Shown here one piece after another: positions 1,082 to 3,616 of a stretch of DNA of 64,000 nt. The stretch's first letter is position 1. The number at the start of each line of letters is the position of its first letter. Below the pieces are notes generated by a model, which had not been told where the DNA came from, did no database searches, and was given only the letters and a program-made list of their open reading frames with translations. The position numbers and the translations under genes are program-made. Source of the stretch: an uncultured Acholeplasmataceae bacterium. Its GTDB lineage: Bacteria > Bacillota_I > Bacilli_A > Acholeplasmatales > Acholeplasmataceae. The stretch is from the NCBI GenBank assembly GCA_963542545.1, contig CAUTWO010000002.1, positions 87,075 through 151,074 of the forward strand, in the 5' to 3' direction.

Positions 1082-1163
1082 ATTTTTCCTCCGTAATACT
1101 TATATATTATATAACATTATATGCAAATAAAAAACACATTAATTAGATTTTTGTAATTTACTC

Positions 1164-1182
1164 AGTTTATTTTAATTAAACT
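1164..1182 (+). repeat. Copy 1 of an exact 19-nt direct repeat AGTTTATTTTAATTAAACT (itself a hairpin: AGTTTA-N7-TAAACT)
   Basis: Identical 19-mer found again at 1332..1350. Confidence 0.9.
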
Positions 1183-1331
1183 TTTTAAAATTATTTATAT
1201 TTATGTTTAATAACATTTTTAATACACTAATTAGTGAAAATACATGCCTAAAAATATCACGCAATAACTTTTATGGCTAAACTGTTTTATACAAAATCTG
1301 TGTTATATTTGTTCGGTAACAAAATTCCAGT

Positions 1332-1350
1332 AGTTTATTTTAATTAAACT
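1332..1350 (+). repeat. Copy 2 of the exact 19-nt direct repeat AGTTTATTTTAATTAAACT
   Basis: Identical to 1164..1182, offset by 168 nt. Confidence 0.9.
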
Positions 1351-1426
1351 AAATTCATTTATATTAAAAAAGTTTAATTAACACTTAAGACAGAGTTTGC
1401 GCTGGATTATTTCAATGTGTTTCGCT

Positions 1427-1439
1427 TATGCTTAGCATA
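1427..1439. repeat. 13-bp palindrome TATGCT-T-AGCATA
   Basis: Read directly; the two 6-bp arms are perfectly complementary. Confidence 0.8.
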
Positions 1440-2387
1440 TTTGAAACAAAACTAAACCAAAAAAAACGTAAACTGTTTTTAGTTTTTTTGAGTGCTTTAC
1501 TTAGGAGTTCACCAAGATTGTCTTTACACTTAATTTTAATTTATCTAATTTAAGAAGTGCCTTAGAGTTAATAAAATACAATTTTTAAACACAGACATTT
1601 TTAAATTCTGATTTCCACAGTTTGCGCAATTTAAAAAATAAATTAGAAATTATTACAAAGTGTCGTTTTTAAAATAATCATTAACCTACACACGCTCGGT
1701 TGATGTGACTATTTTAAACCTTTTTACCCACTTGCAAAAAGGAGAACCACAGTAGCGCTCTGCAAAATTACGAAAATGAAAATGAAGTTTATAAGTGTTA
1801 GTGAAACTTAAAATAACTTTACATTTTAGATGTCCTGTTTGCTTTTAGTAAATAAAACTTAAAATCTACATAGTTTAGTTTAAATAAACAAAATAATTTT
1901 AAATACAAAAAATTTAAAATAAAAATTGAAGTGTATTTTTGGATTTAATTTGAAGTTATTGTAAATAAAACCGTATAAAGCATATACATAAAAAAATCTG
2001 TTTGATTGGTATAGGCTGCAGAAGACTGCGATAATATTTGTAATTTCTATATCTGAAAATTATTTACAAATTCTTGCATTAGTTTATCTTTGTTTGTTGC
2101 CCCTTTTTTAAATAATGCACTATTTATATTTTAAGAAATAACAGGAATGTAAAATAACTAAAGTTAAAAAAACTAAAAAAGTTTAACGGTGTTTTTATAT
2201 TGTCCTCAGAAATAAAAAAAATTTACTAAATTTTTATTACTAAAACTACAAAAAAGTTTAATGACTTAAGAATTAGAACACGAAAAAGATATTTTTATGA
2301 GTTTAATATTTTTAAACTAATTAAATAAGTTTTAAATTAGTTTAAATGTAAAAAATACACTGAAATATTTGTAAATTTTTCTTCAAA

Positions 2388-2424
2388 CGAAAAGTCACAA
2401 CATCTCAGAAAGTATGACTTTTCG
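2388..2424. repeat. Perfect 10-bp inverted repeat CGAAAAGTCA / TGACTTTTCG with a 17-nt loop
   Basis: Arms at 2388..2397 and 2415..2424, read directly. Confidence 0.85.
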
Positions 2425-2691
2425 CTAGTTATAATGAGTTTAATAAAACTAAACTTTTTTAATATTTTTTAGTTATTTATAAAAAGACTCGACACCTTTG
2501 TCTTAATAGAAAAACGCTGCACTAAAAACATACAACATTAAGAAAGCAAAAACTTAAAAATAAGCCTAATTATTTCTAAGAGAAGAAGTAGTTTAGTTAG
2601 TTTAGTTTTACTAATATTTTATTTGTGAATTACATAAAAGTTTAATTGTTAATTAAGTTGCTAACTCACGAGTTTTGGCAAAAAATTAACA

Positions 2692-2725
2692 AAATTCACA
2701 GTCATTTCATCAATTCTGTGAATTT
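2692..2725. repeat. Perfect 10-bp inverted repeat AAATTCACAG / CTGTGAATTT with a 14-nt loop
   Basis: Arms at 2692..2701 and 2716..2725, read directly. Confidence 0.85.
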
Positions 2726-2883
2726 AATTTCGTTAAAACTCGTTTTGCGTTTTTTTCATATTCATTTTTCAAATGTGAATATAAAAAAGAGAGAAGTAAT
2801 TAAGTACAACTGCTTTTATAAACCTTATTTTTAATTTTAGCGTGAATGCATAGTTTATTTCTATTTTTTGTTATTTTTTTATT

Positions 2884-2911
2884 TGTTCCTATAATATATA
2901 TTATGTAAACC
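2884..2911 (+). other. dif: Candidate dif site (XerC/XerD chromosome-dimer resolution site)
   Basis: Reads TGTTCCTATAA-TATATA-TTATGTAAACC. B. subtilis dif as recalled is ACTTCCTAGAA-TATATA-TTATGTAAACT. That gives 24/28 identical, an identical central hexamer, and 10/11 in the right arm. An XerD-like gene lies 0.7 kb away. Confidence 0.75.
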
Positions 2912-2967
2912 AAAATATAGCAAGTTAGTGGAGCGGACAAGTGAAAATGTGTGGGAATGTGGATTAC

Positions 2968-3024
2968 TATTCACTATCGGAATTTTTGTATTTTAGAGTT
3001 AAAAAACAAGATTTTTAGTGAATA
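2968..3024. repeat. Perfect 9-bp inverted repeat TATTCACTA / TAGTGAATA with a 39-nt loop
   Basis: Arms at 2968..2976 and 3016..3024, read directly. Confidence 0.8.
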
Positions 3025-3492
3025 ATTGGCCAGAGTTAACAATTTGAAAAAATGGTAAAAAAACACTAAATTAAAATTTCTGAGCACTGTGTTCTGGCAT
3101 TATCACTATTTAAATATTATTAAACTTTTTTACTTTTTTTGATAAAAATACAAATATACTAAACTATTTAGTGACGCGTTTTGGGCAATTATTACTACCT
3201 TTTGTGGGTTGTTACTCATTATGTTTTGTCCTAGAGCGTCTTAAAAAATACATATTTTATCTGATTAAAGCAAAACATAAATAGCCGCTAATAAACTTTT
3301 ATAAACTGTGTAATATGATTAGCGAATTCACTTGTATAAAAATAACCAGGCTGTAGTCGTCTCAGTTTTATGTTCCTTACTGTTGGCAGGAAAATGATTT
3401 AATATTTATTTTAAAAATAAATTATATTTTTAATAAAAGTTTAATTATATTAAACCAATAAAAAAATGAAATTTTAAGCTTTTACGCACACA

Positions 3493-3550
3493 CTGCAACA
3501 CTGAATTTAAAATTGGCGCGAAAAATAAAAAAAGTTTAACTGTGTTGCAG
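3493..3550. repeat. Perfect 9-bp inverted repeat CTGCAACAC / GTGTTGCAG, interleaved with the 3527..3585 repeat
   Basis: Arms at 3493..3501 and 3542..3550. The 3' arm lies inside the loop of the next hairpin. Confidence 0.8.
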
Positions 3551-3585
3551 ATAATTTCTCTACAAAATTAAGTTAAACTTTTTTT
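3527..3585. terminator. AT-rich 14-bp perfect inverted repeat; candidate bidirectional intrinsic terminator downstream of xerD
   Basis: AAAAAAAGTTTAAC (3527..3540) pairs with GTTAAACTTTTTTT (3572..3585) across a 31-nt loop. A/T runs flank it on both sides, and it starts about 30 nt past the xerD stop. The long loop and AU-only stem keep confidence moderate. Confidence 0.45.
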
Positions 3586-3616
3586 GTTTTTTATAATTAA
3601 GTTTACAAAAACTAAA

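What the first reader, a model, noticed from the sequence alone, without database searches (positions are those of the whole stretch)
1082..3616. 2.5-kb ORF-free, AT-rich region in an otherwise tightly packed genome
The rest of the window is packed: many genes overlap by 1-17 nt, and spacers are mostly under 150 nt. Between eno and xerD there are about 2.5 kb with no credible ORF on either strand. G+C in sampled lines is very low (about 10-37%). The region also holds many repeats and hairpins plus a dif-like site. Candidate explanations are a terminus-organising region, a cluster of small RNAs, or the decayed remnant of an element integrated at dif. None of these can be decided from sequence alone.
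Basis: seen in the sequence. Interest (0 to 1): 0.75.

Follow-up and report, generated by a model that had tools for sequence, protein, structure and literature searches.

The report
Gene-free zone around chromosome dif site
The 2.5-kb stretch without genes holds the chromosome's dif site, where Xer recombinases separate joined sister chromosomes, and it also carries a conserved set of short palindromic motifs that probably bind an unknown protein, while the rest of it drifts like neutral spacer.

Summary
Window 1082-3616 has no conserved ORF, no Rfam or tRNA hit, and is the largest gap in a window that is about 91% coding. Its low G+C (23%) is only the non-coding baseline of this genome.

The dif-like site is real. 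At 2884-2911, TGTTCCTATAA-TATATA-TTATGTAAACC matches B. subtilis dif at 24 of 28 bases. The same 28-mer, with 0-4 changes, occurs in every Acholeplasmataceae lineage sampled, down to 42% XerD identity. It always lies downstream of lepA-hemW-xerD, inside a gene-free gap of 1.1-4.0 kb.

Most of the gap evolves at the synonymous rate, but some islands are under constraint:
- About 140 nt on the XerC-arm side of dif and about 75 nt on the XerD-arm side.
- A 19-bp palindrome, AGTTTA-N7-TAAACT, present in 7 copies.
- Its half-site, AAAAGTTTAA, present 9 times against 0.4 expected.

Across ten lineages the palindrome has 30 copies at spacing 7 and 0-5 at any other spacing. It is 19-fold denser inside dif gaps than outside.

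I found no gene remnants, no second dif, no phage or plasmid similarity and no conserved RNA structure.

Best reading: this is a dif/Xer locus flanked by selected protein-binding sites that organise or insulate the terminus, with neutral filler between them. The binding protein is unknown.

The parts
1082..3616 (.). Gene-free zone between eno and xerD. This is the dif locus.
   Evidence: No ORF over 62 aa and none conserved. No Rfam or tRNA hit. Colinear in relatives, with length held at 2535-2609 nt even at 56% identity.
2884..2911 (+). dif site: XerC-type arm 2884-2894 (TGTTCCTATAA), central region 2895-2900 (TATATA), XerD-type arm 2901-2911 (TTATGTAAACC).
   Evidence: 24 of 28 bases match B. 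subtilis dif, whose sequence is given in PMC3025954. Unique in the window. Identical in L025, L030, L020 and A. palmae, and 1-4 changes in L029, L031, L032 and L037.
2912..2985 (+). Conserved block next to the XerD arm (…GTGGAGC…AAAATGTGTGGGAATGTGGATTACT…).
   Evidence: Nearly invariant in the window clade, including L020. Recognisable in all genera. No consensus RNA structure, -0.48 kcal/mol. Overlapping small ORFs are not conserved.
2745..2800 (+). Conserved block on the XerC-arm side: inverted repeat ATATTCA (2758-2764) - N11 - TGAATAT (2776-2782), then GAGAAGTA (2791-2798).
   Evidence: Conserved in window, L015 and L020. Homologous block ATAyTCATTTTT…AGAAGTA in L029, L031, L032 and L037.
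2580..2591 (+). GAGAAGAAGTAG, about 300 nt from dif on the XerC-arm side.
   Evidence: Conserved in L015 and L020. A GAAGAAG(TAG) motif sits at a similar distance (about 270-325 nt) in A. palmae, L029, L031 and L032. No polarity is detectable across the window.
1164..1182 (.). P element 1, AGTTTATTTTAATTAAACT (19-bp palindrome AGTTTA-N7-TAAACT).
   Evidence: Arms conserved in L015 and L020 while the spacer varies.
1332..1350 (.). P element 2, AGTTTATTTTAATTAAACT.
1872..1890 (.). P element 3, AGTTTAGTTTAAATAAACA (1 mismatch).
   Evidence: Conserved in L015 but not in L020.
2300..2318 (.). P element 4, AGTTTAATATTTTTAAACT.
2437..2455 (.). P element 5, AGTTTAATAAAACTAAACT. It lies in a 20-nt run invariant in all 10 relatives.
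3438..3456 (.). P element 6, AGTTTAATTATATTAAACC (1 mismatch), overlapping the M half-site at 3435.
3600..3618 (.). P element 7, AGTTTACAAAAACTAAATT (1 mismatch), overlapping the xerD stop codon.
1368..1377 (+). M half-site AAAAGTTTAA. Other exact copies: 1176-1185 (-), 2177-2186 (+), 2252-2261 (+), 2636-2645 (+), 3120-3129 (-), 3435-3444 (+), 3530-3539 (+), 3573-3582 (-).
   Evidence: 9 exact copies against 0.37-0.50 expected. Only 2 in the other 61 kb. 7 of 9 are unchanged in L015.
3521..3591 (.). Inverted repeat just after the xerD stop (arms 3521-3541 and 3571-3591, 95% complementary), made of two M half-sites. Possible xerD terminator.
   Evidence: I24. Folding z-score -4.0. The arms are conserved, the loop is not.
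3172..3242 (.). Conserved island GACGCGTTTT…TAGAGCGTCTT with a closing stem GACGC/GCGTC.
   Evidence: Consensus fold -9.4 kcal/mol. Only one compensatory pair, so the evidence for structure is weak.
1082..1135 (-). eno ribosome-binding site and promoter region, nearly invariant.
3617..4525 (-). xerD-type tyrosine recombinase gene (302 aa).
   Evidence: NCBIfam XerD 9.5e-87. The PRK00283 tyrosine recombinase model scores above its cutoff.
25885..26823 (+). Second Xer paralogue (312 aa). Best match is XerC. Probable partner recombinase.
   Evidence: 33% identity to XerD by tblastn. NCBIfam XerC 3.3e-84.

Best explanation
The interval is the dif locus of an Acholeplasmataceae chromosome.

**Shown by sequence and comparison.**
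- A canonical 11-6-11 dif site lies at 2884-2911. Its two arms differ, which fits a two-recombinase XerC/XerD system. Both genes are in the window.
- In every sampled lineage of the family, dif sits downstream of lepA-hemW-xerD inside a gene-free gap of 1.1-4.0 kb.
- Most of the gap evolves at the synonymous rate and has the neutral base composition, so it is filler.
- Embedded in the filler are elements under purifying selection: about 140 nt on the XerC-arm side of dif, about 75 nt on the XerD-arm side, and an array of a 19-bp palindrome (AGTTTA-N7-TAAACT) with its half-site AAAAGTTTAA.

**Inferred.**
- XerC and XerD act at dif to resolve chromosome dimers under FtsK/SpoIIIE control, as in B. 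subtilis.
- The palindromes are double-stranded DNA binding sites for a dimeric protein that is not yet identified.
- The conserved dif flanks are accessory or positioning sequences.
- Together they make the dif neighbourhood a protein-coated zone free of genes and transcription. This zone positions or insulates dif, for example by stalling or unloading SMC complexes before they reach dif. The analogues are MatP/matS in E. coli, XerD/XDS in B. subtilis, and the AT-rich sequence around dif bound by TrmBL2 in Thermococcus.
- The many conserved islands, one every 150-500 nt, would explain why the filler between them is not deleted.
For: **dif itself.**
- 24 of 28 bases match B. subtilis dif, and the site is unique in the window.
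- The 28-mer is identical or has 1-4 changes in 10 lineages whose XerD is only 42-98% identical. Its orientation relative to xerD is always the same.
- XerD and XerC-like genes are present.

**Terminus context in relatives.**
- Gene orientation converges at or next to the gap in L025, L028, L029, L031 and L032.
- In the complete genome of Tenericutes bacterium MO-XQ the locus lies at 51% of the chromosome.

**Neutral filler.**
- Gap identity is 0.74-0.95, against 0.75-0.92 at 4-fold sites.
- G+C equals that of other spacers and of 4-fold sites.

**Selected elements.**
- Motif positions are conserved at 97.5% against 77.0% for other A/T positions in L015 (p=7e-10), and at 80% against 58% in L020 (p=5e-7).
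- AAAAGTTTAA occurs 9 times against 0.4 expected, and is also enriched in the gaps of L015, L020 and L025, with 2 copies in L030 (0.43 expected).
- The palindrome has 30 copies at spacing 7 and 0-5 at any other spacing.
- Its density is 1.49 per kb in dif gaps against 0.077 per kb outside.
- One copy sits 860-873 nt from dif in four genera.
- The arms are the same in all copies while the spacers vary. Single-base arm variants break pairing rather than compensate.
- As RNA hairpins the palindromes fold at only -1.7 to -4.4 kcal/mol, against -14 and -21 for real terminators in the same window.
- The dif flanks are conserved across genera and have no RNA consensus structure.

**Precedent.** In T. 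kodakarensis, a 1.9-kb AT-rich intergenic region that contains dif is necessary and sufficient for an SMC-dependent boundary (PMC11840125).
Against: - No binding protein is identified and no experiment exists.
- The motifs are not polar with respect to dif.
- XerD-arm-like 11-mers are not enriched, 5 against 2.1 expected, so a simple XDS-type array is not what is here.
- A-tract content is only slightly above a first-order Markov expectation (0.40 against 0.37), and there is no helical phasing.
- In the window clade, genes on the eno side point away from dif, and GC skew in the window is uninformative. The terminus position is therefore not demonstrated for this organism.
- The palindrome array is large (6-7 copies) only in the window clade. 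Other genera have 1-3 copies.
- Genome-wide specificity of the motifs could be checked over only 64 kb plus about 20-kb loci.
Confidence: 0.6

Rival explanations
1. This is a plain neutral spacer, or anciently decayed genes, that happens to contain dif. Only dif and the promoter or terminator signals of eno and xerD are functional. The repeats are by-products of AT-rich drift.
For: - The bulk of the gap evolves at the 4-fold-site rate and has neutral G+C.
- Gap length differs between genera, 1.1-4.0 kb.
- L025 contains a decayed tandem duplicate of a 170-aa gene within its gap (tblastn 7e-6).
- The genes next to dif in other genera (ansA, deoB) are absent here.
Against: - Motif positions are much better conserved than other A/T positions.
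- The palindrome keeps a strict 7-nt spacing in 30 copies across 10 lineages and is enriched 19-fold.
- Gap length is held within 3% while sequence identity falls to 56%.
- The dif flanks are conserved across genera.
- No gene remnant is detectable.
Confidence: 0.2
2. The gap is a graveyard of elements that integrated at dif through Xer recombination (IMEX or filamentous-phage-like), now decayed.
For: - dif is a known integration hotspot (PMC5357621).
- Spacer segments are variable.
- Relative L014 is mosaic, with a breakpoint in 2875-2929 that includes dif.
- MAG contigs often break inside the gap, and one ends inside dif.
- A tailed-phage contig carries a dif-like site.
Against: - There is no second, degenerate dif: 0 hits with up to 9 mismatches apart from dif itself.
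- No Pfam domain in six frames.
- No nucleotide similarity to phages or plasmids apart from the dif 30-mer.
- The gap is colinear with conserved islands in all relatives, so it is old and vertically inherited.
Confidence: 0.08
3. The gap is a cluster of small non-coding RNA genes or weak intrinsic terminators, and the palindromes act as RNA hairpins.
For: - Many P copies are flanked by an A-run and a T-run, like bidirectional terminators.
- Two windows fold significantly better than shuffles, z -4.8 and -4.0.
- Island 3172-3242 has a conserved closing stem.
Against: - No Rfam family matches, even at E up to 10.
- P hairpins fold at -1.7 to -4.4 kcal/mol, against -14 and -21 for real terminators here.
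- All copies share the same arm sequence and show no compensatory changes.
- The strongest hairpins are not conserved in L015 or L020.
- The best-conserved block has no consensus structure.
- Promoter-like sites are not enriched, 14 against 19 expected.
Confidence: 0.12

Closest known systems
Chromosomal dif / XerCD dimer-resolution site of Firmicutes (B. subtilis dif with CodV and RipX)
   Same: - 28 bp with 11-6-11 geometry and 24 of 28 identical bases.
- The two arms differ.
- XerD- and XerC-type genes are present.
- The site is a single copy in the sequence available.
   Different: - Here dif is tightly linked to xerD (0.7-3 kb) across the whole family.
- It lies in a kb-scale gene-free zone.
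- About 140 nt and about 75 nt of conserved flanking sequence surround it. Chromosomal dif in the model species is not known to need these (my own knowledge).
The intergenic region around dif in Thermococcus kodakarensis ('boundary 1', TrmBL2 / Smc-ScpAB; PMC11840125)
   Same: - A gene-free region of about 2 kb that contains dif.
- In Thermococcus the sequence around dif, not dif or Xer, carries the function.
   Different: - That system is archaeal, and its region is far more AT-rich than the genome. Here the composition equals the non-coding baseline.
- The binding protein there, TrmBL2, is a filament-forming nucleoid protein with no discrete motif. Here there is a discrete 19-bp palindrome.
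- Function is untested here.
XerD/XDS SMC-unloading sites of B. subtilis (Karaboja et al. 2021, cited through PMC11840125, PMC10945525 and PMC11894783; the paper itself was not available)
   Same: - Multiple short sites clustered around dif near the terminus.
- The xerD gene is adjacent.
- The P half-site TAAAC(T/C) equals the outer end of the XerD arm.
   Different: - XDS are described as dif-like sites. Here XerD-arm-like 11-mers are not enriched.
- The 6-7-6 geometry of P does not fit an 11-6-11 Xer site.
matS/MatP of E. coli (Ter macrodomain)
   Same: - A short palindromic motif confined to the terminus region, densest near dif.
- MatP/matS keeps the SMC complex MukBEF away from dif (PMC10945525).
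   Different: - matS is a 13-bp motif spread over about 800 kb. Here the sites are packed into 2.5 kb.
- No MatP homologue was looked for or is expected.
- The motif sequence is unrelated.
cer/psi plasmid Xer sites with accessory sequences (PMC5357621)
   Same: Conserved non-coding sequence of 100-200 nt adjoins the XerC-binding arm.
   Different: - Those are plasmid sites that bind ArgR/PepA or ArcA/PepA and act without FtsK.
- Here the site is chromosomal, both sides are conserved, and no accessory protein is known.

Membership tests
dif (XerCD chromosome dimer resolution site) | 28 bp: two 11-bp arms in imperfect inverted repeat around a 6-bp central region, similar to the phylum consensus | tested here: met
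   TGTTCCTATAA-TATATA-TTATGTAAACC at 2884-2911. 24 of 28 bases match B. subtilis dif.
dif (XerCD chromosome dimer resolution site) | Cognate XerC and XerD recombinases encoded in the genome | tested here: met
   XerD-type gene at 3617-4525. XerC-type gene at 25885-26823.
dif (XerCD chromosome dimer resolution site) | Single copy per chromosome | tested here: inconclusive
   Unique in the 64-kb window and in each relative's locus. The whole genome was not available.
dif (XerCD chromosome dimer resolution site) | Located at the replication terminus (skew shift, convergence of gene orientation) | tested here: inconclusive
   Window GC skew is weak and uninformative, and eno-smpB-alaS point away from dif. 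In L025, L028, L029, L031 and L032 gene orientation converges at or beside the gap, and in MO-XQ the locus is at 51% of the chromosome.
dif (XerCD chromosome dimer resolution site) | Conserved among related species | tested here: met
   0-4 changes in 10 lineages whose XerD is 42-98% identical.
dif (XerCD chromosome dimer resolution site) | Supports Xer recombination | not testable with these tools
   Needs an in vitro or in vivo recombination assay.
XDS-type XerD binding sites (SMC unloading) | dif-like sequence that keeps the XerD-binding arm, in several copies around dif | tested here: not met
   TTATGTAAACC with up to 2 mismatches: 5 in the gap against 2.1 expected. No 28-mer with up to 9 mismatches apart from dif. 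The XDS consensus itself could not be read.
IMEX remnant (element integrated at dif by Xer) | Bounded by dif and a second degenerate dif-like site; carries phage or plasmid genes; variable presence among strains | tested here: not met
   No second dif-like site. No Pfam, phage or plasmid similarity. Colinear in all relatives.
Structured non-coding RNA or sRNA cluster | Match to a described family, or conserved secondary structure with covariation | tested here: not met
   Rfam: no hit at gathering score and only chance-level hits at E up to 10. Consensus fold of the best-conserved block is -0.48 kcal/mol. Mean z is -0.39. Island 3172-3242 has one compensatory pair only.
Intrinsic (Rho-independent) terminators | Stable G+C-containing hairpin followed by a T-run | tested here: not met
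   P hairpins fold at -1.7 to -4.4 kcal/mol, against -14.1 and -20.7 for terminators of this window. Only 1 terminator-like site in the gap.
Terminus-specific palindromic binding-site array (matS-like) | Short palindrome of fixed geometry, confined to the dif/terminus neighbourhood | tested here: met
   30 copies at spacing 7 against 0-5 at other spacings. 1.49 per kb in dif gaps against 0.077 per kb outside. Only about 200 kb could be surveyed in total.
Terminus-specific palindromic binding-site array (matS-like) | A cognate sequence-specific protein, and an effect on SMC or Ter organisation | not testable with these tools
   Needs DAP-seq or ChIP-seq, DNA pull-down with mass spectrometry, and Hi-C.
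Archaeal-type SMC boundary around dif (T. kodakarensis) | Large intergenic region that contains dif | tested here: met
   2.5 kb here and 1.1-4.0 kb in relatives.
Archaeal-type SMC boundary around dif (T. kodakarensis) | AT and A-tract content well above the genomic background | tested here: inconclusive
   G+C is 0.232 against 0.337 for the window, but equals other spacers (0.231). A-tract coverage is 0.40 against 0.37 under a first-order Markov model.

The most novel reading that the evidence does not exclude
The 19-bp palindrome AGTTTA-N7-TAAACT and its half-sites, packed into the gene-free zone around dif, could be the binding array of an undescribed terminus-organising protein of Acholeplasmataceae. 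This would be a functional analogue of MatP/matS or XerD/XDS that keeps SMC and transcription away from dif. The conserved sequence of about 215 nt flanking dif could be accessory DNA required for chromosomal Xer recombination in this family.
Probability: 0.3. Interest if true: 0.7.

Novelty: new variant of a known kind. Interest (0 to 1): 0.5.

Why it matters
How bacteria without MatP organise the replication terminus and protect dif is known only for a few model species. Two cases stand out: XerD/XDS in B. subtilis, and an archaeal AT-rich sequence around dif.

This locus shows that a whole family of wall-less, small-genome bacteria keeps dif in a kb-scale zone without genes. That zone has conserved flanks and a strictly spaced palindrome. 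The result is a concrete, testable candidate for a new terminus-organising system, and the DNA probes needed for a pull-down are already defined.

There is a practical use too. The exact 28-mer marks the dif locus in Acholeplasmataceae metagenome-assembled genomes. This helps with scaffolding, because many of those assemblies break inside this region.

Tried and rejected
- **Known RNA families.** Rfam at gathering score on the whole window and at E up to 10 on 900-3800 gave only chance hits. ARAGORN found nothing.
- **Decayed genes.** Pfam on six-frame translations gave nothing. tblastn of genes that flank dif in other genera (ansA, deoB, UPF0154, p170 and others) against the gap gave nothing.
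- **Mobile-element DNA.** blastn against phages and plasmids matched only the dif 30-mer and a 73-nt chance hit.
- **Small ORFs.** None is conserved and none has a coding substitution pattern. This includes the hydrophobic 22-aa and 37-aa candidates at 2928-2996 and 3171-3284.
- **KOPS/SRS-like polar motifs** (GAGAAG, GAAGAAG, AGAAGTA). Counts are too low and follow gene strand.
- **XDS-like XerD half-sites.** Not enriched.
- **Degenerate second dif.** None found.
- **DnaA boxes.** Not enriched. One TAATCCACA lies inside the right flank of dif.
- **A-tract phasing or curvature.** No clear signal.
- **Relaxed blastn of the window gap against the L025 gap.** Only AT-rich noise.
- **Metagenome scan for the family-wide P 17-mer.** 120 mostly unrelated hits, and only one further Acholeplasmataceae-like locus, L037.
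- **Karaboja et al. 2021 (XDS).** The paper could not be read.

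
Full report
**Observation.**
- Between the start codon of eno (1081, minus strand) and the stop of a xerD-type gene (3617, minus strand), the longest ORF in any frame is 62 aa.
- G+C in 300-nt windows is 0.18-0.28, against 0.30-0.45 in the flanking genes.
- About 91% of the window is coding, and the next real gap is 475 nt.
- No tRNA, tmRNA or Rfam family is found, either in the whole window at gathering score or in 900-3800 at E up to 10.
One point needs correcting: the gap's G+C (0.232) equals that of the pooled short spacers (0.231) and of 4-fold degenerate sites (0.249). 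AT-richness is the neutral baseline here, and only the length is unusual.

**Relatives.**
- A scan with XerD found 17 uncultured Acholeplasmataceae MAG loci with 87-98% XerD identity.
- Ten of them cover the whole interval and are colinear with it.
- A protein search shows a jump from 87-88% to 48% XerD identity, so this clade is isolated.
- I then fetched contigs for the 88% group (L020-L024), the 47-48% group (L025-L027, L030), Alteracholeplasma palmae J233 (L028), an Acholeplasma sp. (L029), Tenericutes bacterium MO-XQ (L031) and HGW-Tenericutes-2 (L032).

**The dif site.**
- Window 2884-2911 reads TGTTCCTATAA-TATATA-TTATGTAAACC.
- It matches the B. subtilis dif ACTTCCTAGAATATATATTATGTAAACT at 24 of 28 positions. 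That sequence is given in Kono et al. 2011 (PMC3025954).
- The site is unique in the window.
- The same 28-mer is identical in L001-L015 (one change each in L007 and L011), L020, L024, L025, L030 and A. palmae.
- It has 1-4 changes in L032, L031, L029 and a metagenome contig, L037.
- In every case it lies downstream of lepA-hemW-xerD in the same relative orientation.
- In every case it lies inside a gene-free gap: 2.5-2.6 kb in the window clade, 4.0 kb in L025, 1.4 kb in A. palmae, 1.1 kb in L029, 1.9 kb in MO-XQ and 1.2 kb in L032.
- The adjacent gene is XerD-type. A second paralogue at 25885-26823 is XerC-type. This fits the unequal arms of the site.

**Is it the terminus?**
- In L025, L028, L029, L031 and L032, gene orientation converges at or beside the gap.
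- In the complete MO-XQ chromosome the locus is at 51% of its length.
- In the window clade, eno-smpB-alaS-ruvX on the far side point away from dif, and GC skew in the window is uninformative.
- ppdK abuts the gap in L025 but is 50 kb away in the window, so the clade has been rearranged.
- The terminus position for this organism therefore remains inferred.

**How the gap evolves.**
- Identity of the gap to the window is 0.95-0.74 in relatives, against 0.92-0.75 at 4-fold sites of the flanking genes. On average it evolves at the synonymous rate.
- The rate is very uneven.
- In a three-way alignment with L015 (74%) and L020 (56%), length is held at 2535, 2574 and 2609 nt, and a series of islands survives.
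- The islands are:
  - the eno ribosome-binding and promoter region (1082-1135);
  - AT-rich motif blocks;
  - GAGAAGAAGTAG at 2580-2591;
  - a block at 2745-2800 that contains ATATTCA-N11-TGAATAT and GAGAAGTA;
  - dif with about 75 nt to its right (2912-2985);
  - a block at 3172-3242;
  - the inverted repeat after the xerD stop.
- The G+C-richer segments between the islands are the variable parts.

**The motif family.**
- AAAAGTTTAA occurs 9 times in the gap against 0.37-0.50 expected under Markov models of order 1-3. It occurs twice in the other 61 kb.
- It is also enriched in the gaps of L015 (8 copies), L020 (6) and L025 (4 against 0.6 expected). L030 has 2 against 0.43 expected.
- It is the half-site of a 19-bp palindrome, AGTTTA-N7-TAAACT, which has 7 copies in the window gap with at most one mismatch.
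- Across the dif gaps of ten lineages there are 30 such palindromes at spacing 7, and 0-5 at each other spacing from 3 to 12.
- Density is 1.49 per kb inside the gaps and 0.077 per kb in the 181 kb outside.
- In L029, L031, L032 and L037, one copy ((A/T)GTTTAGTAT(A/T)TATAAACT) sits 860-873 nt from dif on the XerC-arm side.
- Motif positions defined in the window are conserved in L015 at 97.5% against 77.0% for other A/T positions (p=7e-10). In L020 the figures are 80% against 58% (p=5e-7).
- The arms are the same sequence in all copies, the 7-nt spacers vary, and single-base arm variants break pairing rather than compensate.
- As RNA the palindromes fold at only -1.7 to -4.4 kcal/mol, against -14.1 and -20.7 for two genuine terminators of the window.
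- I therefore read them as double-stranded binding sites for a dimeric protein, not as RNA hairpins or terminators.
- They are not polar with respect to dif.
- They share only TAAAC with the XerD arm. XerD-arm-like 11-mers are not enriched, 5 against 2.1 expected.

**The dif flanks.**
- Alignment of seven lineages shows conservation for about 75 nt beyond the XerD arm (…TGAGCC/GGAGC…AAAATTGTGTGGnAAnGTG…). It has no consensus RNA structure, -0.48 kcal/mol.
- A five-genus alignment shows conservation from about -140 to -60 on the XerC-arm side (ATAyTCATTTTT…AGAAGTA) and a GAAGAAG motif near -300.
- In other genera the right flank lies upstream of ansA. The window clade has lost ansA and deoB but keeps the flank almost invariant. 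Its conservation therefore does not depend on that gene.

**Rivals tested.**
- *Gene decay.*
  - There is no Pfam domain in six frames and no remnant of neighbouring genes of other genera.
  - L025 does hold a decayed tandem duplicate of a 170-aa membrane-protein gene in its gap.
- *IMEX remnant.*
  - There is no second dif-like site with up to 9 mismatches.
  - There is no phage or plasmid similarity beyond the dif 30-mer.
  - The gap is colinear in all relatives.
- *Small ORFs.* None is conserved.
- *Small RNAs.*
  - The mean z-score of 120-nt windows is -0.39.
  - The two strongest hairpins (2642-2761, 3482-3601) are not conserved in L015 or L020.
  - Island 3172-3242 has a conserved closing stem but only one compensatory pair.
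- *Origin-like features.* DnaA boxes are not enriched.

**Comparison with known systems.**
- The core is an ordinary Firmicutes-type dif/XerCD site.
- What differs from the model species is the family-wide linkage to xerD, the kb-scale zone without genes, the conserved flanks and the palindrome array.
- The nearest precedent for a large intergenic region around dif with its own function is T. kodakarensis.
  - There a 1.9-kb AT-rich intergenic region contains dif.
  - The region is necessary and sufficient for an Smc-ScpAB-dependent domain boundary through the nucleoid protein TrmBL2, independently of dif and XerA (PMC11840125).
- Bacterial analogues that keep SMC complexes away from dif are XerD/XDS in B. 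subtilis and MatP/matS in E. coli (PMC10945525, PMC11894783).
- Membership in the XDS class was tested and not met. Membership in a 'terminus-specific palindromic array' class is met for the sequence features, and untestable for the protein and its effect.
- I found no paper that describes dif in Acholeplasma beyond the single Tenericutes prediction in Kono et al..

**Verdict.**
- The finding is real and is explained in its main part: it is the dif locus.
- What remains open, and moderately novel, is the function of the palindrome array and of the conserved dif flanks.

Noticed in passing
window 2875-2929 and about 5600; locus L014: Relative L014 is mosaic. It is about 97% identical to the window left of dif, and 47-92% (per 100 nt) from just right of dif to about 5600. 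Over that stretch its per-100-nt identity to the window tracks L015's, and it shares several variants with L015. Beyond that it is 98% again. One breakpoint interval (2875-2929) includes dif. This is either homologous recombination ending in the conserved block or an exchange at dif.
   Followed up: partly
contig ends of L002 (window ~3108), L006 (~2322), L008 (~3293), L013 (~3519), L016 (~3600), L022 (inside dif): Seven of 17 MAG contigs of the clade break inside or at the edge of the gap. Five of these ends fall within about 15 nt of a P or M motif. One contig of the 88% group starts exactly in the right arm of dif. The cause may be short repeats, low coverage of AT-rich DNA, or strain heterogeneity.
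   Followed up: partly
L025 9723-10340: In the 48%-XerD clade, the 170-aa membrane-protein gene after xerD has a decayed tandem duplicate (tblastn 7e-6). Each copy is followed by ATATTATGTTTAAA, a weak look-alike of the XerD-arm half of dif with more than 6 mismatches to the full site.
   Followed up: partly
L033 6758-6786 (IMG/VR UViG_3300046491_000121): A tailed-phage contig with terminase, portal and capsid genes, which looks G+C-richer than the window, carries GTACCTATAATATATATTATGTAAACT. This is a near-perfect Firmicutes-type dif, and it lies in a non-coding stretch. It may be a Xer-dependent attachment site. A Listeria phage record (OR848731.1) also matched the dif 30-mer.
   Followed up: partly
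window 25885-26823 (+): A XerC-type recombinase gene lies between ung and dut, 23 kb from dif. Both Xer genes are therefore close to dif.
   Followed up: yes
window 51260-51734: This is the second largest gap of the window (475 nt) without an ORF of 60 aa or more. On the minus strand it reads like an interrupted small membrane-protein gene.
   Followed up: no
window 53825-56458 versus L025 13719-14129: ppdK abuts the dif gap in L025 but lies 50 kb from dif in the window. Here eno-smpB-alaS, which point away from dif, take its place. This indicates a rearrangement next to dif in the window clade.
   Followed up: partly
window 2958-2966 (-): TAATCCACA, one mismatch from the DnaA box TTATCCACA, lies inside the conserved right flank of dif. 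TGTGGATTA is also present in L029. DnaA boxes are not enriched overall.
   Followed up: partly
window 2868-2895 (+): The best promoter-like match of the gap (TTGTTA-16-TATAAT, 10 of 12) overlaps the left arm of dif, because the dif consensus itself contains TATAAT. Transcription would run into the conserved right flank. The -35 part is not conserved in L020.
   Followed up: no
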